From the NCBI GenBank assembly GCA_001244265.2, contig CDLV01000005.1, positions 2,356,001 to 2,420,000 of the forward strand: a DNA stretch of 64,000 nucleotides, given 5' to 3'. The translations under genes and the position numbers were made by a program. The notes under the pieces were generated by a model. That model made no database searches and was not told where the DNA came from. It saw only the letters and a list, made by a program, of their open reading frames with translations. Source of the DNA: Microbotryum violaceum. Its lineage: Eukaryota. This document shows, piece after piece, positions 24,207-36,665 of this stretch. Each line of letters opens with the position of its first letter. Position 1 is the stretch's first letter.

Positions 24207-27200
24207 ATGGTGCTCAAGCGTGCCGACAGCTCGACGTCACAATGGGCCATCCCGCCCGAGCCGACTTCGCTCGACCATGACGAGATCAAGCAGCAGGTGA
24301 GTCGAGGAGGAACATGTTGCAAGGATCTTTCGGCTTCGTACCGGAGTCGACGAATCTCGCCGCTGACTCGTCAACATCCCTCACGCGAACCCGACCGAAC
24401 TCGACCCTACGCCACGCCACAGAGACGGCTACGGCACCTATCCGCCGTCCTCGTTCGCAACCTCATCGTCGAGCCCAGACGAAGCCACAATCCAACGAGC
24501 ACATCGCCTTTCCTAAGCGACGCACCCTTCGACGCGGTCGGACCTTCCTCGTCCTCGTGTTCGTCGTTGCGCGCCTCCGCCCCTAAATCGTCCTCGGGAC
24601 CGACTCGGCCAGCGTTTGCTTCCGATGATCTTGACTTGCTCGTGCGCAATAGGAGGAGACGGGCCACAAGTAATGCCAGCTTGCGTTCAAAGACCGGACC
24701 GAGCAGATCTTTACTCAGGGACACTCTCGTTGAGGCGGCAGAGGAAGGCGTCGGTGTGGGGTCGAGCTTGTCCTCTTCGAAACCCGAACGGACGTCCCTA
24801 CGACGCAGCATGACCGGGGACAGGCGGATAAGGATCCAGGAAGAGAATGACGAGCTATTTGGAGTTTCCGTGTTTGACGGCGATTCTGCGACTGCCCAAG
24901 CTTCGACATCCCACCTCCCCGACGAGGAACAGCTCGAGGCCGACGATGATGTCGACGTGGACGAGGTCGGACGCACGGACTGCTTTTCTCCCTCTTCTCC
25001 CTCCGAATTCAAACGTAGAGATCGCTCAGGCTCTCGTACTTCCATAGCGTCGGCGGGTACGACTGGTTCGGGCTCTACAATACGACCCCGTACTAGCGAA
25101 CTCGACTGGAACGTCAGCGCGCACGCCCCTGCTCGCACATTCTCACATTCGGCTTCAAATCCTCGACTGCCCGATACCCTAGCCTCCCGTACAGCATCGC
25201 GGGGGCGAACTGCTTTCTTTTCGGATTTACAATTGGCAAAGGAGAAGCGGCGGCGGATCGAGCTTCTTCATCGGCGTATGGTCGACAGCACCATCACGCT
25301 CTCATTCTTTCGGCCACGGGAGCAGACCGAGGATCCCGTTGACCCAACTTCGACGAGGCGGCCAAACACACTTTCAAGCCCGACACCTCATCGACCGGGA
25401 CGGAGCGGGAGTACCGCCTCCATTCCTGGTCGTAGTGCAAGCCGGGGACTGGCCCTGCCGTCTGCCGTCGAGTCAGCTCCATCGCTCGACGTCTTGCCTC
25501 CGTTTTTCATCGCCCAGCCTGCTTGCAAAACTCTCAATCCGACATTCATGGTCGAGCCCAGCGACTTTCTCGTCGATCCCGAGACGCAAGATTTGGAAGA
25601 TTGGCCTGGGCTTCAAGAAGAGCATGTGCTGGTGTCGCTGTGGACCAAGAGGAGCGAAGTTGGAACCGATATGGACAAGGGAAAGGCGAAGGAACAGAAT
25701 GTGGACTCGGCCAAGGCTGCTTGGATGGTGCTCGTTGAGTGGGACGTCAGTTTGGACGGGCTTGTCAGCTTAGGGAGAGATGTAGGTTCCCCACTCTCGC
25801 AGATGTATGCGGCAAGTCGAACAAGAACCCGTCTGACTGACATGCGCATTGTCTCATAGCCCGCTCAATTCCCACAGCTTCAACCCAACACCATCATATT
25901 CGCCATGGCCGACGAGTACTTCACGGCCCCCCTACCCCTTCGGACACGATTTCGGCCCTACACTTCGGACGACAATCACTCATCGAGCTGTTCCGAAGAC
26001 GACTCGGATGGGGCCGGGAATTATTCCGATCCAGGGGCGGGTGGTGTATCCCATTCTTGGCGATCGAGACGACGACGTAGGAGGGAAGAGGAAGAGGCTG
26101 AGGAGGCGAGAAGGATGCGCAAGGTGTTGGTGGAGAGAAGTCTTCGTGAAACCAGGATGGTCAAAGTCGCTGACGTTGAGGATCTCTTGAGGTCAGTCAT
26201 GTTTGAAAGAGGCTATTACGAGTGACGAAATGCTGATCAAGCTTTGGTGTTCGCAGGTTCAAGCGGATCGAACACGAACGCTGCGAGAACAAAAGGACGT
26301 TGCACGAGCAGAAACAACGACTGGGTGCAATCTTTGGCGATGCGGCTGGAGAAGCTGCACTGGTGCGTTGGGTGAAAATTCGCTCTGCCGACGCCGTTGA
26401 GCTGAATGTTCTGCCTTCCCACAGTCTCGAGAGAGCGAGGAGCTGCAGGATCAAATTGACGACTTGGTCGCCGTTCGCGATGACCTTCGCCTTGATATCG
26501 CCGAAAGTACGTCGAACATGCGGATTTTGCGACGACCATTATTACTTGCTGACGAAGAGGCACTTTCACAGTCGAGTCTGAATTTGAGCAAAGAAAAGAT
26601 GAACTGCGCCAACGAAGACTGCGGCTCGACTCCGCTCGGTCGATGCATGAGGCGCGAGCAGTCGGACTCGACCAACAGAGAGCCTTGCTGCGGCAGAGCG
26701 AGGGTGCTTGCGCCAAGATCCGACGTGCGATCGAAGCCCGACGAGAGCAGCTTATCACATTGCTGACGCACATGTTCCCCATCGAGCCCGTAGCCACGGA
26801 TGGGTCCTCGTTGTTGTTCTCTATCCTCTCTATACCCCTTCCGAACTCGACCTACCCGCCCACCTCATCCGACGATCATCTCTCCTCTGCACTGGGATAT
26901 GCAGCTCAAGTCGTCTCTGCTCTGGCGGCCTACATCGGCGTACCGTTACATTACCCTATCAAGTGTTTAGGCAGTCGCAGCGCCGTTATCGATCCGATAA
27001 GCATGATGCGAGGCCCTCGCGCCTTCCCGCTCTATGGCAAAGGCGTCGACAAGTACCGGTTCGACTATGGCGTCTTTTTGCTCAACAAGGATATCGAGCA
27101 ACTGATGTACTCGCAAGGCCTGACCGTGATCGACTTGCGAAATACGTTACCGAACCTCAAGGCATTGGTACTGGCGCTCTCTTTTGCTTCGTCGCAGGCG

Positions 27201-27791
27201 TAAGTCCATGCTAGAGCAATCGTTGGAGAATTTGGGGAGCTGACAGAAGGGTATCTTTGGTATCGCAGTGAGTTTGCGTCGCTGAGCTTACACCCTCCAG
27301 CTCGCTTCCCCAACCTGTCGGCGTCCTCGACCGATCCCGAACAAGATCTGACGAATGAGCTCGAGGAAGCGAGCCTTTCACGACCGACCGTCGCTCCCGG
27401 GGAACCACACGGGACGTTGACGAACGGTCGTGAAGATGCCGTCCCATCTTCATCAGATGGAAGTAAAAGCGCAAGTGAAAGTGGTGATTCGGATCCTGAT
27501 GCAGACTCTCAATCGGTCGATACGATGCGAACCGCGACAGCTTCTGAACCGCAGTCGACTCGAACCTCATCCAGCAAGACCAAACCGGCCAAACCGATCA
27601 CGGGACAGGAGAAGCAGACAATTCGGACGCTTGAACCCGCACCGACTTGTATTGCTTCGAACGGAGCGACCACGACGGCGGGCTCGAATGGGAAGGTCAA
27701 AACGACGGTTAAGGCTAAGGAAGGGTCTTCGGCGACCCAGGCTTTAAGGAATAGTTTGTGGACGGCGGTCGGGTATGGGTCGCATGCTTAG
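24207..27791 (+). CDS. UVRAG/Vps38 (Atg14-like) PI3K complex subunit; multi-exon
   Basis: QRRLRHLSAVLVRNL, TLNPTF, VLVEWDVSLDGL, a coiled coil, then MFPIEP...FSILSIPLPNS...SSALGYAAQVV...YIGVPLHYPI...GSRS...FPLY...YRFDYGVFLLNKDIEQL...DLRNTLPNLK. Confidence 0.88.
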
Positions 27792-27947
27792 ATGAGGGGT
27801 TTATGAGATGATGGTCATGTTAATTTTAAACAAGAGCAATGAAGGATACATGTTTTGCTAGTCCCCGACGCCGACGTTTGCTGAAAGAGCGTCGAATTTG
27901 GCCAATTGCTTAAATAGGCTTACCCGAGCTTGTCCGAGCCTGTCACA

Positions 27948-28490
27948 TACAATCCCTGGTGCTCGTTCTTGAATAGCAGTCCCAGATGAGGCAGGTCCAG
28001 CTGCTGCTGAGGGTGCGTCCTTGCTGCCTTCAGGAGCCCATGCGATGGGGCTTGAATACCCACGCAGTCATTTGCTACGATACGATCGCGCACGGCCAGC
28101 CAGCATGGTGCGCTCTGCGAGGTACGAGATGTTCAACATATCAGTGGACACAGACAATTCACGTATATTCGTTGAAGACTACTACTCACGGGGAACCAGG
28201 AGGTGCCGGCGCCAGAATGAAGGTTCGATCGATCGATCGAACACGGCACTGTGCGCCGCGGATGTAGAAGCAGGGTTTAGTGAATGCTCAAATATCTAGA
28301 AAGGATAGAAAGAGGCAAGACAAGTAATCTACTCGCATTCGGTGAATTCGCCATGAACGCAAGCCATAATGACGGTCTCGGGCTCTCCACCCGGTGCGCT
28401 CGGTCTGAGGAACGCAGGCAATGTGAAGCAATCAAACACGAACTTTGTCGGATCGTCGAGCGGGTGCTGACTCTTGGGCAGAGTGCAGTC
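27948..28490 (-). pseudogene. MEX67: Intron-containing fragment of MEX67/NXF1 (NTF2-like domain), disrupted
   Basis: LPKSQHPLDDPTKFVFDCFTLP...VIMACVHGEFTE | intron | RSIDRTFILAPAPPGSP | intron | AHHAGWPCAIVS*QMT(frameshift)RGYSSPIAWAPEG...ERAPGI|gtatg. No LRR/RRM region upstream. Confidence 0.7.
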
Positions 28491-28629
28491 ATTCGGTCGA
28501 AGATGCTGCATCGTTCGGCGAGCCAGCGTGCGACGAATCGGCGGCATCGCTGGAGGCAGTTACAAGGGCAGGAGCAGCGGGAGTACGAGTGGGCGTAGGG
28601 GCAGGAGCAGCAGCAGCAGCTGCCAGGAT

Positions 28630-28790
28630 TACGTCGACTTTCCACCTATTTCGACCTGCGTCCCCGGGTTCGAGGACTCGGCGGTCTCGAGCTGTTTCCC
28701 CGGGTTCGAGGACTCGGCGGTCTCGAGCTGTCTGACCGCCGAGTCCTCGAACCCGGGGACGCAGGTCGAAATGGGTGGAAAGTCGACGTA
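28630..28790. repeat. Inverted repeat (57-bp arms, 1 mismatch) with an internal 36-bp tandem duplication
   Basis: 28630-28686 is the reverse complement of 28734-28790; tccccgggttcgaggactcggcggtctcgagctgt occurs at 28661 and 28697. Confidence 0.95.
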
Positions 28791-31700
28791 GTCGTCCCAC
28801 GACTAGCCCGTCGGCGTAAAGTGCGGTGGAGTGAGTGACCACCTGAGGTCAGCAAATTCAGAGATACAAACGAACGATGCGCCTCCGGCGGCGGGCCGCG
28901 GTCAGCGGAGCATTGCTTAGTAGGACCTACGTTCCCAGTCGCTTTTCGGAAGATGGCCTGCAGTGCCTCTTCCCTTGCGCTCTCGACCCTCTGCAGCATC
29001 GGTATTCCTCCCGAAAGCCTGAGCGAGGCCTTGACCGCATCCTTCGACACCCATCGCACCGACTTTTCCTCGGTCTCCCCCCCCCCCCCCGGTTGGATTC
29101 GCGATGGTCTTGGGGACGTGAGGGATATGACGCAGAGCGAGAATGAGCTTGTGGAAGACAGGGCCGACGTTCGCTGGTGAGTACCACTTCGTGTAGTGGT
29201 CGGTCACGAGGTCGAAGATTTCGTAGAGTGTCTGCTGAGGAGGGTTCGCCGCGTCTGCAGTGGTTCGCCGCGTCTGCAGTGGTTCGCCGCGTCTGCAGTG
29301 GTTCGGACGACGAGTGGGGCCCGTGGACCGCTTCCGCGACGCAGAACGTGAGAACGTTGACCACGTGGCCATTCGGTAGCCATTGGCCGTGGGGGACGCG
29401 ATAATGACCAAACAGCTCGAGGTTGAAAAGTTGCAGGACGACAAACGGACCCTTGCCCGTCAAGTAACGCGCTACTGGACCTGAGTTGGGCTTGAACAGG
29501 GTTTGCTCGCTGGCTTGGGTCGAGGTGGCCGTCTGCTTGCGGACCTTGGGCGGTGGGCCGGGGTTGGCGGAGTCATCACCGTCAGAGTCGTGGCCACTGC
29601 CAGCATCTCCGAAGCGGGTCGGAGACTCGACGGAGAAGATACCGTGGATGGTTGCTTCGCAAAATTCGAACCATTGTGCTTCCCACTCTGGCTTGATTGA
29701 CCAAAGTCCTTCCCCTTCTTCTTCGCTTCCGCCCAGCAGTACGCCTTTCGGATCGATCTGTCGCTTCAACATCTTGCGGACTCGTGGGCCTGCGCCAGCG
29801 AATTCCTCGTCCGTCGTCTGCGCCTCAACGCGTTGCGCGACCCACGGGATCCAGACTCCATCGAGCCATTGGACGAGAACATGCGCGACTTTTGGTCCTT
29901 TCCAGAGCAAAATCGCGGTACGTCGAAGCGACATCATGATGAAATCAGAGGCAAAATCCTGTGGAACGAGGGACGGGTGTCGAAATTCGGTCAGCATAGA
30001 ATGCTCGCCTTGTGGTACCTCGGACGCAGTCGCGATTCCACCCGGACATCTCGGGGGCCACTCACCGGAGCAATACCCTGAGCGCAACCACTCAAGATCT
30101 TGAGCGAGTGAAGGGCTGGAAGGAGGATATGGGTCGGCAAGAACTTGAGACGACCCCCGACGAGATCGCCGAGGGTGTGTCGATTGGTGAGCTGTTTGGG
30201 AGCGGTCGGAGAAATGACCTCGTCGAGGTGTTGACGGATGATCTGTAGCCCCTCGTCGACGAGTCTTCAGGCGCATTGGTAGACGTCATCAAAGTCTACA
30301 GCCTCGCGAAGGTGCTTCTTCAACTCGTCGTAGTAGACACGAAGGTTCCCCTTCAACTTTGGGTCGGTGGCGGCGGAATGGGTCGTGCGGTCATGTAGAA
30401 GGGGCATCATGAGCATCGCTTCAACGATGCATTCAATGTTGCGGTCACGGTATCGAGCCTTCGCCGCCTCGAGTTAATAGTCGCCTTGGTCGTCGCTGGC
30501 GGCGAAGCACTCAAAGCCTGCCGAGGCAAACGAACGAAGGACCGAAGGAATCGCATCCTTCCATCCAAATAGACCGACAATCATCATGACGACCCGGTCG
30601 TCCCACCATTCGGGCGCGTGCACGAAGTGAGGAATCGATTGCCTCTTCTCCTTGGTTTCCATCGTGGCCGGACGACGCTAGTCCAGGCCTGCGAAGCGAG
30701 AGGGAGAAGGGGTGTGTGCGCAGGGCAGGCGGCGTCAGGTCTGGCACCCGTCCACGGGTAACGAAACCGCCCGTGTACTCACGAACGCGAACCCGATGAC
30801 GTCCTTGCCACTCGAGACGCGACGGAAGAGTTCTTGCTCCTCTTCGTGTTTCTGCGGCGCGACTGACGCCTTGTCGGGCAGCGTCAGCGGGTCGTCGAGC
30901 CTCGTGCGGCACCTGGATCCCTGGCCCGCACTATCTGCCACGCCGTCCTCGCGCAAGAGGTACACTATCGCCATGATCAACGTTCGCCAGCGATTCTTGT
31001 CGAGTCCAAGTTTCTGCCACTGCGCGGGGGCAAGATACCCCAAGCAACGGCCGAGAGCATCGGCGAGAATGCTCTCGACCTCGCGATTCGAGACGGCCAG
31101 GAGGCGAAGGACCGGCTGGAAGGCATCCAGGGCCGGCCTGGGACGATTGGGGGTTTCGAAACGGTTGAAGGGCATGCCGTTGGAGTGTGGTGGGTGGAGG
31201 TTGCCGTTGATGGTCCGGAACCGAGAGATGGGTGGCGCCGGACTGACACGGCGTGCTCTGGCGTGTCCAGCGCGGGCGGAATGTCTCCCGTCCGAAAATT
31301 GATTTCGGGCATGACGTCAGAAAAAAACGCATCGCGGCCGCGCGGTGGTTCAGGTGCGAGCACCGCAACCAGTGTAAGTGAGCACAAGCTTCAAGAAAGC
31401 GCATACGAAGATATCGAAGTATAGCGAGACACGCCCCAAGCCCTTCCGACAGGACGCATCGACCTCAGCTCCGTCTCGCGAGTCAACTCATCCATCGATC
31501 TGCATCGGTACGATCCCGTCGTGCGCGAACCGGGATCGCTGACCGAAGCCAAGTGACACTCGACATCCAGGCAGTGCAGGCACTCATCGAGTCATCGTGC
31601 TCGGAGCTTGTTCGATGCCGCGTTGCCGACGGTGCGCTCGCTCCAACCTCTCGAACCGTCGTCCTGGCCATGGCTCTTCGGACTCGAAGTGATCCTTGCT

Positions 31701-33350
31701 TCAACTCGCCTGGCATCGTCGGTGCCCTCACCATTTGCTCAAGCGTACCCGTCACCGTCGACATGCGGTAGATTGTACCGCCGGGGGTCTTGCCGCTGCC
31801 GCCATCGCCGCCGCTGCTGCCCGAGTCCGATTGCTTCGAGAACAGCGCCCGTACTTCGGCGGCGGTGGTTGCCTTCTCCCTTTTTTTTTTTTTTTTTTTT
31901 TTTTTTTGGCTCGGCGCTCTTAGATTTGTGCTGACTATCTACTTGGCTGTCCTTGAAATCGGGCTCGACGAGGTGGTAATCGGGCGCTTTGACGGTACCT
32001 TGAACGGCGAGCTTCCGCGTAGACGCCATGCGGGCCGGCTGCTCGGCCTGAAGTCGACGAGCCTTGGCGAGATGGCGTCGGAGATTGAGGTCTTGGATGC
32101 TCGAGAGGGGCGGAAAGGGAGGCAAAGGTCTGACAGAGGAGACCCCGAGGAGCTGGATGAGGGGAGGGTTGCGTTGGATCGGCGGGTAGGCCGTGTTGGG
32201 GACTTTTGAAGGATCTCTGTGTGGGGTGCCTTCGAACCGCACCCTGGTTCCCTTTGCGACTGTGGTGATGGACGCCTCGGTCGCTTTTGCAAACGTCTCG
32301 TCCTTGTAGCGATGCATCAGGTGTTGGATGGGATCGATCTTGGCGCAGAGCGACTTGATGTCCTCGAGTCGATCAGCCGTCGGCGCCGCCTCCTAGTCGA
32401 CGTTCCTCTGGACCAGCTGCAGCGCATCTAAGGCGCGCTCCCAGCCACTTTGCCACGTCGCCGCGTCCAACCACTGCCCAGGCAAGTTTCGAAGTCCTGC
32501 TGGCCCGATCCCTTTGATGCCCCCGAAATAGTCGCACCCGAGGATGAGGCTCGCGACGAATCGCTGACGAGAACTCCACACCGCGGGGTGAGCGTCGAGC
32601 ACGGCAAGGTCTACCAAGCTGATGTTTTGGTCCTTTCCCGATAGCACGCCCCGATAACGGGCTTGTTCGGCGCCGAGAAGCATGAAAAAGTCGCTGTCGG
32701 CGCTCACGAGGACGACGCGGTTGGGTTCGAGCGCAACGTCGCAGATCTGGCCAAACTTGGTCGACGCCGAGACGAGGGGATCGGCCTCGTGGGCCGCGAC
32801 GACGAGCAAGCCTTGCTCGGACCAGCGAACAAAGGTGGCGGGCGACTCGGGTTGGCTCGTCACCGTGGCAAAAAGCGACCTCCCATTGTTTGCTCGATCG
32901 TCCGTGAACGCACGCGGCGAGGGTGTCGTTCGTGGTGGGACGGGGTGGGTGACAGGGGTCGACTTATCGGAAGGCTGTTGCGGCTGCTGGTGATCTTGGC
33001 GATCGAGCACGGTGTCCCGCTTGAGCTCGGGACGAAGGATGGGATGATCAAATACCACGACCACTTGGATCCGCCTTGCCGTCGCTGCAATGACCTCCTC
33101 GAGGTGTCGAATGATAGAATTGAGGAACAGCCGGCCTCGCTTCGGCTCGTTATGTTGCGCCCGGTCCGTCAACCCAAGTCGGCGACCACCTCGAGCTCGT
33201 CGCCTCTCTCTCTGTCTCCTTCCTGCTCCTCGTCGACGCGCTCTGCACTTCTCGCACCACTTGATCTTGCCGACATCGCCCCCCTTTTCAGGAGGATACA
33301 AAACGGTGGCCTTTGTGGTGTGGTAGAGTCTGTCGTTCGATCCCTCCCAC
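28790..33350 (-). mobile_element. Decayed intronless large ORF, probably transposon-borne: FEN1/XPG-like PIN nuclease plus long C-terminal region (possibly TnpB/Fanzor-like)
   Basis: PIN/H3TH motifs VVVVFDHP..RPELK, HEADP, VSADSDFF and LILGCDYFGGIKGIGP. ORF 32393-33301 continues in frame past a single TAG into 31739-32317. Further co-oriented pieces are broken at poly-T (31881-31907), a 19-bp repeat expansion and poly-C (29077-29090). No obvious introns, unlike neighbouring host genes. Confidence 0.6.
29243..29305. repeat. 19-bp tandem repeat x3.3
   Basis: ggttcgccgcgtctgcagt at 29243, 29262 and 29281, plus a partial copy. Confidence 0.95.
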
Positions 33351-34330
33351 CGTCAAAAGTGTGAGTAACCACCTAGCTGTGATCGTGGTCGTATTCGTGT
33401 GGCGTAGGGTTGGACTGACTCGTCTCGTGTTTACCCGTCTCGCGTCCATCTTTCACCACACCACCTCCATCATCTTACCCCACACCACCTCTCCCCTCTC
33501 CACTCTCACTGCGATCTCTCGCTTCCCACCTCGCCACTGCCTCCGACCTTACCGTCTCTCGCTGCATCACGGCTTGCCATCAGCCTATCCACTCGTCGAC
33601 GAGTGTTGAATGGCGCCTACGGCATGTCACTGAGGTTGTTGCTGGTCCACAAGACCGCTTGCATTTGATCGTACCCCGTGAGTCTTTTGCTTTGACCCTT
33701 GATCGATCGATGGATCGATCGTGCTCGCCGGCCCTTGACGACGGGCGAGGCGGGGCTGACGATTCGATCCTCGCCTACACTTTCCCCACACAGTAGCCTC
33801 CACTGCGTTACCGAGTGGACCGATTTCACCTGCTCAGATCGAAGGAGATTCACGGTACCCCTAACATCAGTGAGTAGCATGTACCCTAATTCTGTGGTAC
33901 CAGGTAGCTTACTTCTAGTATACGCTTCAACCTCCAGCTGCACACGGTCTTCTCGACAAGGTCCCCTTTTCTTTTTCTGTTGCTTTCGAACTGGTTTCAC
34001 CTCGAAACTCTTACGCTGGCGGTGCTAAGTGGCAGGCGACTGGTCTTTGTTTAGCCTAGCCAGATCCAACTCCTACATTGAGCCTCCCTCGTGAACCCTT
34101 TTCGTGTTTTGTAGTTTTTGAGTGCACGTATCGAGATGCGCATGCACCACGGATTTGAAATTCGAGCCTACGATAGAGCTCACGAGTTGGCGCGCGTGCT
34201 CTCCCTCGGCTTCTGAACCTTCTGCTAAACCCTCTGCGCTACCGCCCTACGCCTCCTCACACTCGTTTCAATTGAAATCAACTCGGAGTCCAGACGATCT
34301 TACCCCCGACACAAGTAGTGTGTCAGAAGG

Positions 34331-36665
34331 ATGTCGACGCCTTCCGAGTCCCCGGCGCCGATCGCGTCGCCGTCGGGAATGACGCCGTCGGGAATGACGC
34401 CGTCGGGAGTGCGAGTGCCCAAGCCCAAGCGGGATGCTCAGACCAGGGCTGTGGAGGGGATTCGGCAGTTCCTGGTCGGTTGGCGCAGGGCAGAGTTGTA
34501 GCTTGGACGTTTCTTTTACTGAGCTTGTGTGTGTTGTGTCTCGATACAGCAAAGCAAGAGTTGTTACGACATCCTGCCCGAGAGGTAGGTCGGCTCATTC
34601 AGGCCACTCGGCTGGTTCGTCGTACCGATCTACTGCTGTTACTGAACCTGATCTTCCGTCCCCTCTAGCTTTCGCTTGATCGTCTTTGACAACAAGCTGT
34701 CCATCACGAGGAGTCTGCAGGCTTTGGTCACCAATGGCAAGTCCAACTTGTCTTCGCCGTCGCTAATCGTCGTCATCGAGCACTCGCTAGCAGCGTGGCG
34801 CCTAGTTTCTGCTCGTCCGTGAACGGTGCTATCTCGGCTCAGGATCACAGCTCCCGGTGTTGTACGTTTTGCGTAGCGTGTGTAGCTGATCATGATGCCC
34901 CTGTTGATTCTCATCCCACAGGAGTGGTCTCGGCACCGCTATACGACTCGACGACCCAACGCTTCGCCGGCATGTTCACCCTCGCGGACGTCGTTCACCT
35001 GATACAGTACTACTACCTCACATCACACGAATATGATAATGTTGTTGCTGAAGTGGACGCGTTCCAGTTGGGCAGCTTGCGGAGTCAGTGATCGACGCCG
35101 GGACCGGATTCCTTATCTGCCGCCGAACGCTGACCGAGTGCACTCATTCGTCCTTCATCCCCACAGAGATCGAACAGGCCATCGATGTTCCACCGCCGCC
35201 GACAATATCGGTACACCCCGATCAGCCTTTATCGGATGCATGCGCTGCGCTCGTACGGACCCACGCTCGACGTCTGCCCCTCGTCGACCGCGATGACCAG
35301 ACGGGCAAGGAGACCATCGTCAGCGTCCTGACGCAGTATCGAGTACTCAAGTTCATCGCCATCAACGTGAGTTGGTTCCGTAAACTAACCCTGTCATCGC
35401 GCTGGTCGTGCTGACTTTTGCTTCGCTCGTCAGTGCCAACATGACTGCGCTCGAATGGAACAATCGATCGGCGCACTCGGGATTGGATCATACTGCTCGT
35501 GGTATCAACCGTCCTCCGCACTCTCTTCGGACGTATCGAGTGTACCTCCCCTCAGCCCAGCCCCATCCACAAGCGAGCTCATGTCCCCCATCGATGGCGT
35601 CTCGCTCCTACCATCCGACAAGGTCAAGAACCTGTCCTCCGCCCAACTCGACCGAGATAACGCTGAAGCAACAACACCACATGGTGATGATGCAGCCAAA
35701 ACGACAGCAGAAACACACCCTTCGTCAGGGTCAGGTGATGATGCCCTCGCGTCGAACGCCGAGTTTGGGGTGCGACCCACGGATCGGTATTTCCCGCTCT
35801 CGACGGCAACGCTCGAGACGAGTGTCTTTGACGTCGTGCACATCTTCTCCGAACGTGGTATTTCAGCCGTACCGATCATTGATGAGGATGGTATCGTGCT
35901 CAACATGTACGAGACGGTTGACATCGTAGTAAGTCTTAACATGCGCCAAGGTTGGCTTGTCGGGAGCTTTAGGGCACCTTTGGCTGACGCCGACTTTGTT
36001 TTTTTGCAGGACCTGGTGCGGCAGAATGCATACGAGGTGCTTGATTCGACGATTGAGGTCGCTTTGGACCAGCGATCTGCCGACTTTACGGGTGTGATGA
36101 CCTGCAGCCCACGGGATTCACTCGCCTCGATCCTCGCTTACATTCGCGAGCGGCGGTGCCATCGATTCGTCATCCTCGAACCGGATGGGGTTCCACCGCA
36201 AGGCGGTCGACCGGGAAGGAAAAAGGGTAGCTTGATCGGTATCTTGAGTCTGAGTGACGTGCTACGGTATCTGGTGGGGCAAGAGAATCTCAAGGGCATG
36301 GAGGTCCCCGGTCTCGGTAAGTCATCTCGGCACCCGCATTTCATTCGAATGCAGTGAATTAAAGCAACCTGCTAAACAAAGGCGCAATCACCTTGTTCGA
36401 ATTGCTAGGTCTTCATGGACTGCGAGGCGTCGGCAATGTGCCTCCGGGAGAAATTGATGTACTCGACGACGGGGTCTCGCTGCGGTCCAAACCATGCAGT
36501 CGGCGAGGATCGGGAGCAACGGATGCTGGCAGTTCGGGGATCCCTTCGGCGGCCGATACTATCGCGTCCCAGGTCGAACCAGGCCCCGCTGCGATTGCCG
36601 GAGCAAATCTAGGGCTCGAGGATGTGGCCGAGGACGAGGTGTTGAAAGCCGCGGCCGAGACATGA
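34331..36665 (+). CDS. SNF4: AMPK/SNF1 gamma subunit (CBS domains); multi-exon
   Basis: IRQFL..SCYDILPESFRLIVFDNKLSITRSLQALVTNGVVSAPLYDSTTQRFAGMFTLADVVHLIQYYY, HARRLPLVD, VSVLTQYRVLKFIAIN, ERGISAVPIIDEDGIVLNMYETVD, GILSLSDVLRYL. Confidence 0.92.

What the first reader, a model, noticed from the sequence alone, without database searches (positions are those of the whole stretch)
28790..33350. Decayed element encoding a FEN1/XPG-type PIN nuclease fused to a long, possibly TnpB/Fanzor-like C-terminal region
Seen in sequence: co-oriented minus-strand ORF pieces tile ~4.5 kb with no evident introns. They are joined by one in-frame TAG (32393-32395), homopolymer slips (T run 31881-31907, C run 29077-29090), scattered stops and a repeat expansion, implying one ancestral ORF of roughly 1500 aa. 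Its N-terminus has clear 5'-nuclease motifs (VVFD..RPELK, EAD, DSD, LGCDY..GIKGIGP H3TH) but is far more diverged than host FEN1/EXO1/RAD2. Inference from memory, not a search: the order of C-terminal segments (SLVPQDFASDFIMMSLRRTAILLWK; YRVPHGQWLPNGHVVNVLTF; LYEIFDLV; WVSKDAVKAS; AREEALQAIFRKATGNVG; HSLHRTL) resembles large PIN + TnpB-like RuvC proteins I recall from early-diverging fungi. If correct, this is a eukaryotic RNA-guided nuclease (Fanzor-type) family fused to a flap nuclease in a basidiomycete. The RuvC catalytic D/E/D residues are not identifiable here, and the copy appears truncated at the hairpin.
Basis: partly seen in the sequence, partly recalled or inferred. Interest (0 to 1): 0.85.

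Follow-up and report, generated by a model that had tools for sequence, protein, structure and literature searches.

The report
Dead PIN-nuclease plus Fanzor-like gene pair
This stretch of an anther-smut fungus genome holds the broken but still transcribed remains of two neighbouring selfish genes, a flap-nuclease-like gene and a relative of the RNA-guided Fanzor/TnpB nucleases; the pairing is unusual, but this copy is dead.

Summary
They belong to two ORFs, not one.

- **PIN-like pseudogene.** Window 33184-31483 (minus strand) is a 5'-truncated, frameshifted copy of a 563-609 aa protein family. The family carries XPG/FEN-type motifs and was found only in Microbotryum plus one Rhodotorula pacifica protein.
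- **Fanzor-like pseudogene.** After a 307-nt spacer, a second ORF starts at its own Met (31175). It is the remains of a roughly 1000-aa protein.
- **Intact relatives.** M. saponariae has six annotated copies on five chromosomes. Four of the five complete models looked at there carry the full Fanzor signature: GIDPG, a Glu six residues before a zinc ribbon, and HRD. They give weak Pfam Cas12f1-like_TNB hits.
- **Damage in the window copy.** It has two premature stops, a 19-nt repeat expansion and an inverted duplication that replaces RuvC-I. Only faint traces of the zinc ribbon remain, near 27.8 kb.
- **Transcription.** Two introns are spliced in RNA-like contigs, so the locus is still transcribed.

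The TnpB/Fanzor guess is supported. The fusion is not supported in Microbotryum, although a 1721-aa R. pacifica gene model does join both domains. Whether the two genes form one element is inferred, at about 60%. Both structure predictions failed.

The parts
31483..33184 (-). Pseudogene of an XPG/FEN-like PIN-domain protein family (intact relatives 563-609 aa). It lacks about the first 63 codons, including the start and the first acidic motif.
   Evidence: tblastn maps P0014 aa 64-497 to 33184-31874 (71% identity) and aa 416-578 to 32097-31603. phmmer finds 12 relatives among 1.84 billion representatives. Rad2 is the best PDB hit, E 0.003. No trace of the N-terminus was found in 33101-34800.
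33170..33172 (.). Breakpoint where the PIN pseudogene meets another repeat.
   Evidence: Loose ends lie on both sides at 33170 and 33172 in X1, X8 and X18 (table 7).
32837..32936 (-). About 33 codons read out of frame between a +4 and a -4 change relative to paralogous copies.
   Evidence: Paralog contigs leave out 4 nt at 32837 and add GAAG behind 32936. The X8 contig over 32643-33270 matches the window with 0 gaps. The other frame matches P0002 and P0005.
32393..32395 (-). In-frame TAG within the PIN ORF.
31881..31907 (-). 27-nt A run (T on the + strand) in a Lys-rich stretch, with a frame change across it. It may be a microsatellite expansion or an assembly error.
   Evidence: Contigs break here ('reads seem cut there: 31871-31918').
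31176..31482 (-). Spacer between the TGA of the PIN ORF (31483-31485) and the Met of the second ORF.
27808..31175 (-). Pseudogene of a Fanzor/TnpB-like protein of about 1000 aa. P0015 aa 1-662 is clearly recognisable down to 28737. Weak collinear remnants follow beyond that.
   Evidence: tblastn of P0015 and P0016. aa 751-813 maps to 28626-28441 (E 3e-5 in a 2.8-kb database). P0016 aa 893-962 maps to 28005-27808 (E 0.11, C-x4-C and the terminal DHH kept, three stops).
30688..30781 (-). Intron spliced in RNA-like contigs (94 nt, GT..AG). The annotated model uses a 105-nt version ending at 30678.
29958..30064 (-). Intron spliced in RNA-like contigs (107 nt, GT..AG).
30267..30476 (-). Stretch homologous to coding sequence of P0015 (aa about 190-256), bounded by two premature stops: TAA at 30474-30476 and TGA at 30267-30269. 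The model MVLG_00389 treats it as an 'intron'.
   Evidence: RNA-like contigs run unspliced over 30065-30688.
29243..29305 (-). 19-nt unit in three full copies, with a frame change across it.
29077..29090 (-). 14-nt G run (C on the + strand) with a frame change. The annotated model also changes frame inside it, so it may be an assembly error.
   Evidence: Contigs end at 29090.
28627..28793 (.). Inverted duplication with 60-nt arms plus a 36-nt tandem copy. It is made from coding sequence (..SWDDYVDFPPISTCVPGFEDSAV) and stands where P0015 aa about 663-750, including GIDPG (RuvC-I), should be.
28115..28189 (-). 75-nt intron (GT..AG on the minus strand) spliced in RNA-like contigs downstream of the hairpin.
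32482..32644 (+). 163-nt GC..AG intron (AG|GCAAGT) of a plus-strand transcript that runs antisense to the PIN pseudogene.

Best explanation
The region, really about 27.8-33.17 kb, is a dead relic of two co-oriented selfish genes that sit between two host genes.

**Gene 1** encodes a divergent XPG/FEN-like PIN-domain nuclease, 563-609 aa in intact relatives.

**Gene 2** starts 307 nt further on at its own Met. It encodes a Fanzor-type protein of about 1000 aa, that is, a eukaryotic TnpB-like protein with a split RuvC domain and a zinc ribbon.

**Both are inactivated here.**
- Gene 1 has lost its 5' end, carries a TAG and has frameshifts.
- Gene 2 has two stops, a repeat expansion and a fold-back duplication that replaced RuvC-I. 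The rest of its RuvC and zinc-ribbon region is decayed almost beyond recognition.
- The locus is still transcribed and spliced.

**Shown:** the homologies, the breaks, the introns, and the dispersed multi-copy state of gene 2 in M. saponariae.

**Inferred:**
- In intact copies the Fanzor-like protein is an RNA-guided DNA endonuclease that serves the spread or retention of its element, as TnpB and Fanzor do.
- The PIN nuclease belongs to the same element as an accessory 5'-flap or 5'-end processing enzyme. I put this at about 60%. It rests on the adjacency here and on the single R. pacifica gene model that holds both domains in the same order.
For: **PIN family**
- 12 of 1.84 billion representatives match. 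Eleven are Microbotryum and one is R. pacifica.
- The motifs IIDG, VFDHP..RP.LK, AHEADP, SADSDF and GCDY..GIKG.GP are aligned across the family.
- They align in register with Rad2, E 0.003.
- The top 4 of 4 PDB profile hits are Rad2, Rad2, FEN1 and GEN1.

**Two separate ORFs**
- PIN models end about 30-70 residues after the shared YRMST..L.D.VRE motif.
- The Fanzor-like models share their Met start with window 31175.

**Fanzor nature of the second ORF**
- PF07282 matches 3 of 3 proteins scanned (P0012 7.3e-5, P0016 1.8e-4, P0015 2.5e-3), always at the C-terminal end of both model and protein.
- guided_TnpB and phrog_506 give weak hits in the same register.
- The ESM Atlas scores the P0012 C-terminus 0.96 against Cas12f1-like_TNB clusters of eukaryotes and giant viruses.
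- The published Fanzor signature is a DPG motif plus a Glu six residues before the zinc finger (bioRxiv 10.1101/2023.08.09.552727, passages read). A relaxed form hits 5 of 9 Fanzor-like proteins, 0 of the 14 other proteins held, and 0 of 14000 shuffles.

**Mobility**
- Six proteins of at least 90% identity lie on Chr1, 3, 4, 5 and 10 of M. saponariae and in M. silenes-dioicae, plus P0016.

**Linkage**
- hhalign of the PIN family against P0012 residues 52-323 gives probability 96.9, E 1.6e-10. The same protein carries the Fanzor signature at 1428-1670.

**Transcription**
- Spliced joints appear in X7 and X8 and are absent from the DNA-like run X1.
Against: **The nuclease assignment is weak**
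- No Pfam XPG family matches any of 14 PIN-family members, even at E <= 10.
- The intact relatives P0014 and P0004 do not reproduce the Rad2 hit.
- The family profile reaches only E 0.17.

**The Fanzor assignment is below curated thresholds**
- All PF07282 hits are below the gathering score of 26.3 bits.
- No solved Fanzor or TnpB is hit by sequence or profile.
- The strict published Fanzor2 expression matches none.
- The zinc knuckles are C-x4-C and C-x3-C rather than CxxC.
- The Microbotryum and Rhodotorula Fanzor-like parts share only the C-terminal motifs (hhalign E 0.038).

**No structural support**
- Both AlphaFold models failed, with mean pLDDT 29.2 and 38.8.

**The linkage is not seen elsewhere**
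- 0 of 7 annotated Fanzor-like genes of M. saponariae and M. silenes-dioicae has a PIN gene with a neighbouring gene number. The nearest pairs are 509 and 135 numbers apart.
- Copy numbers differ in the DNA-like run. The PIN 5' part lies at 2-5 times the depth of the Fanzor part, over which only one contig was laid.
- A third repeat abuts at 33171, so this may be a nest of repeats.
- The R. pacifica fusion is an unverified gene model.
Confidence: 0.7

Rival explanations
1. Chance neighbours. A PIN-family repeat and an unrelated Fanzor-bearing element landed in the same 6-kb intergenic repeat nest. The PIN protein has nothing to do with the Fanzor element.
For: - 0 of 7 annotated Fanzor-like genes in two other Microbotryum species has a PIN gene next to it by gene number.
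- A third, unrelated multi-copy repeat abuts at 33171.
- Depth differs between the two parts in X1.
- Many PIN-family models are fragments scattered on other chromosomes.
Against: - The same two rare families occur in the same order and orientation in one R. pacifica gene model.
- The PIN family has only 12 representatives in 1.84 billion proteins. Two independent chance pairings in two orders of fungi are therefore unlikely.
- Unannotated pseudogene partners in the other genomes could not be looked for.
Confidence: 0.25
2. One reading: one ancestral fusion protein of about 1500 aa, with a PIN nuclease at the N-terminus and a TnpB-like part at the C-terminus, now broken into pieces.
For: - The R. 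pacifica model P0012 (1721 aa) has both domains in one ORF.
- The pieces are co-oriented and close together.
Against: - Five PIN-family models from three species end at 434-609 aa, about 30-70 residues after the shared YRMST..L.D.VRE motif.
- The Fanzor-like models begin at the same Met as window 31175.
- The exhaustive search found no long Microbotryum protein with the PIN N-terminus.
- The window has a TGA, a 307-nt spacer and a frame change between the two parts.
Confidence: 0.05
3. Lineage-specific host genes, or their pseudogenes, that are not mobile. The second protein only mimics TnpB motifs by chance.
For: - The locus is spliced and transcribed between ordinary host genes: an ATG14-like gene and a CBS-domain gene.
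- All family-model hits are below curated thresholds.
- The ESM Atlas's best lead for the window's own model is RAI16-like at 0.86.
Against: - At least 6 copies of 90% identity or more lie on five chromosomes of M. saponariae.
- Three motif blocks stand in TnpB order, with the Fanzor-specific E-x6-C spacing, in two very divergent lineages, and in 0 of 14000 shuffles.
- The RAI16-like lead has no Pfam support at E <= 10.
Confidence: 0.07

Closest known systems
Fanzor1 / eukaryotic TnpB-like RNA-guided endonucleases (Bao & Jurka 2013, PMC3627910; Saito et al. 2023, PMC10432273; Jiang et al. 2023, PMC10530073; Yoon et al., bioRxiv 10.1101/2023.08.09.552727)
   Same: - Intact relatives have a C-terminal split RuvC domain with a DPG motif.
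- They have a Glu six residues before a zinc ribbon, and HRD at RuvC-III.
- A long N-terminal region precedes the RuvC domain.
- They are interrupted by introns.
- They are multi-copy and dispersed.
   Different: - About 1000 aa, with a 236-residue DPG-to-Glu distance. The Fanzor2 expression allows 120-160.
- Zinc knuckles are C-x4-C and C-x3-C.
- All HMM hits are below curated cut-offs.
- No guide RNA, element ends or transposase have been identified.
- No paper in the library holds 'Fanzor' together with 'Basidiomycota'.
- The partner gene is a PIN/XPG-like nuclease. That pairing is not mentioned in the main texts I searched. Supplementary tables could not be seen.
FEN-like group of the PIN-domain superfamily: XPG_I (FEN1, XPG/Rad2, EXO1, GEN1) and XPG_I_2 (Asteroid) (Matelska et al. 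2017, PMC5499597, passages read)
   Same: - Acidic motifs stand in the same order.
- An H3TH-like G.DY..GI.G.GP block is present.
- Rad2, FEN1 and GEN1 are the best solved matches.
   Different: - No Pfam or NCBIfam model is matched at its threshold.
- A long unique C-terminal half ends after a conserved YRMST..L.D.VRE motif.
- The family is known only from Microbotryum and one Rhodotorula protein.
- It is multi-copy, and many copies are decayed.
IS200/IS605 and IS607 two-gene elements of prokaryotes (tnpA + tnpB)
   Same: Two co-oriented genes, with the TnpB-like gene second.
   Different: The first gene here is a PIN/XPG-like nuclease, not an HUH or serine recombinase. No evidence shows that it acts as a transposase.

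Membership tests
Fanzor / TnpB superfamily | RuvC-I aspartate in a DPG motif (Yoon et al.) | tested here: met
   GIDPG or GVDPG is present in P0012, P0015-P0018 and P0021. It is absent from the window copy, where the hairpin replaces this part.
Fanzor / TnpB superfamily | RuvC-II glutamate six residues before the first zinc-finger cysteine | tested here: met
   EDLTSSLC in the Microbotryum relatives and EAWTTKSC in P0012. No such motif is found in the window remnant.
Fanzor / TnpB superfamily | Zinc ribbon CxxC...CxxC followed by the RuvC-III aspartate | tested here: inconclusive
   The aspartate is present in HRD, 6 residues after the last Cys. The knuckles are C-x4-C and C-x3-C (CxxC in P0012), spaced 30-61 residues apart. 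The strict published expression matches 0 of 9.
Fanzor / TnpB superfamily | Match to the curated family models (PF07282, NF040570) at their thresholds | tested here: not met
   PF07282 scores 18.4-23.3 bits against a cut-off of 26.3. NF040570 scores 10.3-16.6 bits against 100.
Fanzor / TnpB superfamily | RuvC fold with REC, WED and NUC domains | tested here: inconclusive
   The AlphaFold2 model of P0015 has mean pLDDT 29.2 and is unusable.
Fanzor / TnpB superfamily | Guide (omega) RNA encoded at the 3' end, and RNA-guided DNA cleavage | not testable with these tools
   The 3' end of the window copy is decayed. DNA of intact copies was not available.
FEN-like PIN nucleases (XPG_I group) | Conserved acidic residues in the N and I regions, in order (labels recalled from FEN1/XPG literature) | tested here: met
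   Family alignment. Alignment to Rad2 covers VFD..LKR, DSD and LG.DY. The first Asp block (IIDG) is missing from the window copy.
FEN-like PIN nucleases (XPG_I group) | H3TH DNA-binding motif after the PIN core (PMC5499597) | tested here: met
   GCDYFGGIKGIGPAG aligns to the Rad2 stretch LGSDYTNGLKGMGPVS. Weak matches to TIGR03674 at model positions 224-247 and to FEN1 and GEN1.
FEN-like PIN nucleases (XPG_I group) | Match to Pfam XPG_N, XPG_I or XPG_I_2 at threshold | tested here: not met
   0 of 14 members match at E <= 10.
FEN-like PIN nucleases (XPG_I group) | PIN fold with helical arch | tested here: inconclusive
   The model has mean pLDDT 38.8. Foldseek found no match at E <= 0.001. 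GEN1 and EXO1 appear only among weak rows.

The most novel reading that the evidence does not exclude
A previously undescribed clade of Fanzor elements in Microbotryomycetes works as a dual-nuclease system. The RNA-guided RuvC nuclease is obligately paired with an XPG/FEN-like 5'-flap nuclease: an adjacent gene in Microbotryum, a fused domain in Rhodotorula. The flap nuclease would process the displaced strand, resect the break or mature the guide RNA, and would take the place of a conventional transposase partner.
Probability: 0.3. Interest if true: 0.8.

Novelty: new variant of a known kind. Interest (0 to 1): 0.58.

Why it matters
Fanzors are the eukaryotic RNA-guided nucleases. Their known partners are ordinary transposases.

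A basidiomycete Fanzor-like family of about 1000 aa is scored only below threshold by the curated models. If it is tied to a flap-nuclease-like gene, that would widen both the taxonomic range and the known gene partnerships of these systems. The intact M. saponariae copies and the R. pacifica fusion would then be testable candidates.

For genome annotation, MVLG_00389 is a patched-up pseudogene model. One of its 'introns' skips stop codons and is not spliced in the RNA-like contigs.

The window copy itself is inert.

Tried and rejected

**Structure**
- AlphaFold2 of P0015 (3-row alignment) gave mean pLDDT 29.2. AlphaFold2 of P0001 (14 rows) gave 38.8. Both are unusable.
- Foldseek of the PIN model against the PDB found nothing at E <= 0.001.

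**Sequence and profile searches of the PDB**
- P0012, P0013, P0016 and the RuvC alignment A3 gave no TnpB, Fanzor or Cas12 hit.

**Comparisons with R. pacifica P0012**
- tblastn or BLASTP of P0012 against the window, P0013 and P0015 found only the PIN part similar. The word-size-2 run was mostly noise.

**Searches for more relatives**
- P0012 has no full-length relative of 946-3012 aa.
- Scans for related loci found nothing: viral contigs with A3, metagenome contigs with A1 and with A3.
- tblastn of P0012 against plasmids found no match.

**Leads and checks that did not hold**
- The ESM Atlas lead 'RAI16-like' (0.86) for MVLG_00389 has no Pfam support.
- The RIP-like TCG>TTG bias is not raised: the ratio is 0.44 in the element against 0.61 in the whole window.
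- Rfam hits at the hairpin (mir-1304 and others) are far below gathering scores and reflect only its shape.
- Removing the 75-nt intron did not improve the match to the RuvC C-terminus.
- The flanking inverted repeats I4-I6 are TCGA-type low complexity and were not taken as element ends.

**Sequencing runs**
- No RNA holder was listed. I take X7 and X8 to be RNA-like from their spliced joints and uneven depth only.

Full report
**Where the window comes from**

The window's own gene model was returned by the protein search as MVLG_00389 of Microbotryum lychnidis-dioicae p1A1 Lamole (P0013, 653 aa). The region lies between two host genes:
- an ATG14-like gene (26553-27203, + strand, Pfam E 3e-11);
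- a CBS-domain gene (35389-36357, + strand, E 2e-12).

**Checking the observation**

The following are all present at the stated coordinates:
- the ORF pieces;
- the TAG at 32393-32395;
- the 27-nt T run;
- the 14-nt C run;
- the 19-nt repeat in three full copies;
- the inverted repeat with 60-nt arms.

No other copy of any piece lies in the window. A 452-codon open frame at 59% GC cannot be chance.

**The upstream part: a PIN-like family**

An exhaustive phmmer search with the 319-aa piece found only 12 proteins among 1.84 billion representatives. Eleven are from four Microbotryum species and one is from Rhodotorula pacifica.
- The longer Microbotryum models (P0001, P0014, P0003, P0004, P0006; 434-609 aa) share a YRMST..L.D.VRE motif. 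They stop about 30-70 residues after it, with a loosely similar acidic end (..M[SE]ID..).
- Many other models are fragments.
- tblastn places P0014 aa 64-578 on 33184-31603.
- The window ORF then runs to a TGA at 31483-31485.

So the upstream protein is complete at about 600 aa and does not continue into the downstream pieces.

**Is it an XPG/FEN-type nuclease?**

The motif blocks IIDG, VFDHP..RP.LK, AHEADP, SADSDF and GCDY..GIKG.GP stand in the order known for FEN1/XPG. That order is recalled from memory. Three of the blocks are shown directly in the Rad2 alignment (E 0.003).

The statistics are weak:
- No Pfam XPG model matches any of 14 family members, even at E <= 10.
- The family profile finds Rad2, FEN1 and GEN1 as its only four PDB hits, at E 0.17-0.76.
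- The intact relatives P0014 and P0004 do not reproduce the Rad2 hit.
- The structure model was too poor to use.

I rate the PIN/XPG-like assignment as probable, about 85%, but not proven.

**Damage to the PIN copy**
- It lacks about the first 63 codons. A breakpoint at 33170/33172 is marked by loose ends on both sides in three runs. No N-terminal trace lies upstream.
- A +4/-4 pair at 32837/32936 throws about 33 codons out of frame. Paralogous contigs carry the unshifted version, and an independent contig confirms the window's version.
- The TAG at 32393-32395 is in frame.
- The frame changes across the A27 run. That one may be an assembly error, because contigs break there.

**The downstream part: a Fanzor-like family**

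A first search with the 452-aa ORF found only the window's own model. A second search with the whole model found P0015 (1027 aa) and P0016 (968 aa) of M. saponariae.
- Their cluster holds six proteins of at least 90% identity, on Chr1, 3, 4, 5 and 10 of M. saponariae and in M. silenes-dioicae. This is the pattern of a recently mobile element.
- They begin MPP[HR]PSDTP.RPR.AL. This matches the window's MPFNRFETPNRPRPAL at 31175.
- Their C-termini carry VGIDPGT, then YYVDEDLTSSLCSNQDC, then QCERGCQPPVHRDLVAAKNI.

Evidence that these proteins are Fanzor/TnpB-like:
- Pfam Cas12f1-like_TNB matches at E 1.8e-4 and 2.5e-3. The R. pacifica protein matches at 7.3e-5. All are below the gathering score, and all lie at the end of both model and protein.
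- guided_TnpB and a phage transposase family give weak hits in the same register.
- Yoon et al. define Fanzors by a DPG motif at RuvC-I together with a glutamate six residues before the zinc finger (passages read).
- A relaxed form of their expression matches P0012 and P0015-P0018. It matches none of the 14 other proteins held and 0 of 14000 shuffles. Their strict Fanzor2 expression matches none.
- P0019 and P0020 show the tail motifs, and P0021 shows GIDPG, in the printed ends. Their models are shorter.

I rate the TnpB/Fanzor-superfamily assignment at about 90%. No solved Fanzor is hit by sequence, and the structure model failed.

**State of the Fanzor-like copy in the window**

P0015 aa 1-662 maps onto 31175-28737 in several frames.

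Two of the apparent breaks are real introns. Contigs of runs X7 and X8 skip 29958-30064 (107 nt) and 30688-30781 (94 nt), both with GT..AG on the minus strand. The DNA-like run X1 shows no such joints. I infer that X7 and X8 are RNA from these joints and from depths ranging from 4 to about 200,000. Their kind is not on record.

The remaining defects are:
- TAA at 30474-30476 and TGA at 30267-30269, inside sequence homologous to P0015. The RNA-like contigs run unspliced across them.
- The 19-nt repeat expansion.
- A frame change in the G14 run. The annotated model also switches frame there, so it may be an assembly error.
- The inverted duplication at 28627-28793.

The inverted duplication is built from coding sequence and stands where aa about 663-750, including GIDPG, should be. 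Beyond it:
- aa 751-813 still align to 28626-28441 (E 3e-5 in a 2.8-kb search, with a Trp turned into a stop);
- a faint collinear trace of the zinc ribbon and C-terminus lies at 28005-27808 (E 0.11).

The copy is therefore rearranged at the hairpin rather than cut off there, and nothing catalytic survives. The model MVLG_00389 bridges the stops with a 246-nt 'intron' that the contigs do not support.

There is no RIP-like mutation bias.

**Are the two genes one element?**

For:
- They are 307 nt apart and co-oriented here.
- R. pacifica P0012 (1721 aa) has the same PIN domain at residues 52-323 (hhalign probability 96.9, E 1.6e-10). It carries the Fanzor signature at 1428-1670, and the ESM Atlas scores its C-terminus 0.96 against Cas12f1-like_TNB clusters.
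- Both families are very rare.

Against:
- None of 7 annotated Fanzor-like genes in two other Microbotryum species has a PIN gene with a neighbouring gene number.
- Depth in X1 differs between the two parts.
- A third repeat abuts the locus.
- P0012 is an unverified gene model with no full-length relatives.
- The Fanzor parts of the two genera share only the catalytic motifs.

I put linkage at about 60%.

**Likely mechanism (inferred)**

By analogy with TnpB and Fanzor, the intact downstream protein would bind a guide RNA transcribed from the element's 3' end. It would then cut matching DNA, favouring the element's retention or copying. The PIN nuclease could trim 5' flaps or ends at such breaks, or process the RNA. 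None of this can act at this locus.

**Literature**
- No paper in the library holds 'Fanzor' together with 'Basidiomycota'.
- Of the 10 papers listed by a search of Fanzor with Microbotryum, Rhodotorula or Pucciniomycotina, none contained 'Fanzor' (307 papers matched at least two of the four terms).
- The main texts of four Fanzor papers contain no mention of a PIN or XPG partner or of basidiomycetes (term searches).
- Their supplementary tables could not be read and may list these genes.

**Verdict**

It is a decayed two-gene locus, not a fusion. The interest lies in the intact relatives elsewhere.

Noticed in passing
window 33172-33600 and beyond: A sequence that starts at the 33171 breakpoint lies at about 8-11 times the single-copy depth in the DNA-like run X1. 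It reaches depths up to about 200,000 in the RNA-like runs X7 and X8. No Rfam family matches it at E <= 0.1. It looks like a highly expressed multi-copy repeat of unknown kind.
   Followed up: partly
window 31378-33270, + strand: A spliced plus-strand transcript runs antisense over the PIN pseudogene. Its intron is GC..AG at 32482-32644, with donor AG|GCAAGT. Its depth is about 5-10 times that of the Fanzor-like part.
   Followed up: partly
window 28632-31175, minus strand (MVLG_00389 / P0013): The deposited gene model is a patched pseudogene. One 'intron' (30264-30509) skips two stop codons and is not spliced in the RNA-like contigs. The model also changes frame inside the G14 run at 29077-29090.
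   Followed up: yes
window 27945-28480: A second copy of this stretch, about 6% diverged and with small indels, exists elsewhere in the genome of run X1. It overlaps the expected position of the decayed RuvC-coding part.
   Followed up: partly
P0005 (MVLG_05249, another locus of the same genome): A 379-aa model whose first 155 residues or so are a PIN-family N-terminus, including the part missing from the window. The rest is unrelated. It is probably a chimeric model over another fragment.
   Followed up: no
window 28650-28770: The long hairpin scores against several miRNA-precursor models and VA RNA, far below their gathering scores. As RNA it could still be a substrate for RNA silencing.
   Followed up: no
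window 26553-27791 (+) and 35389-36357 (+): The flanking host genes are an ATG14/Vps38-like gene and a CBS-domain gene. The 3' end of the ATG14-like ORF series (about 27791) meets the 3' end of the Fanzor-like remnant.
   Followed up: partly
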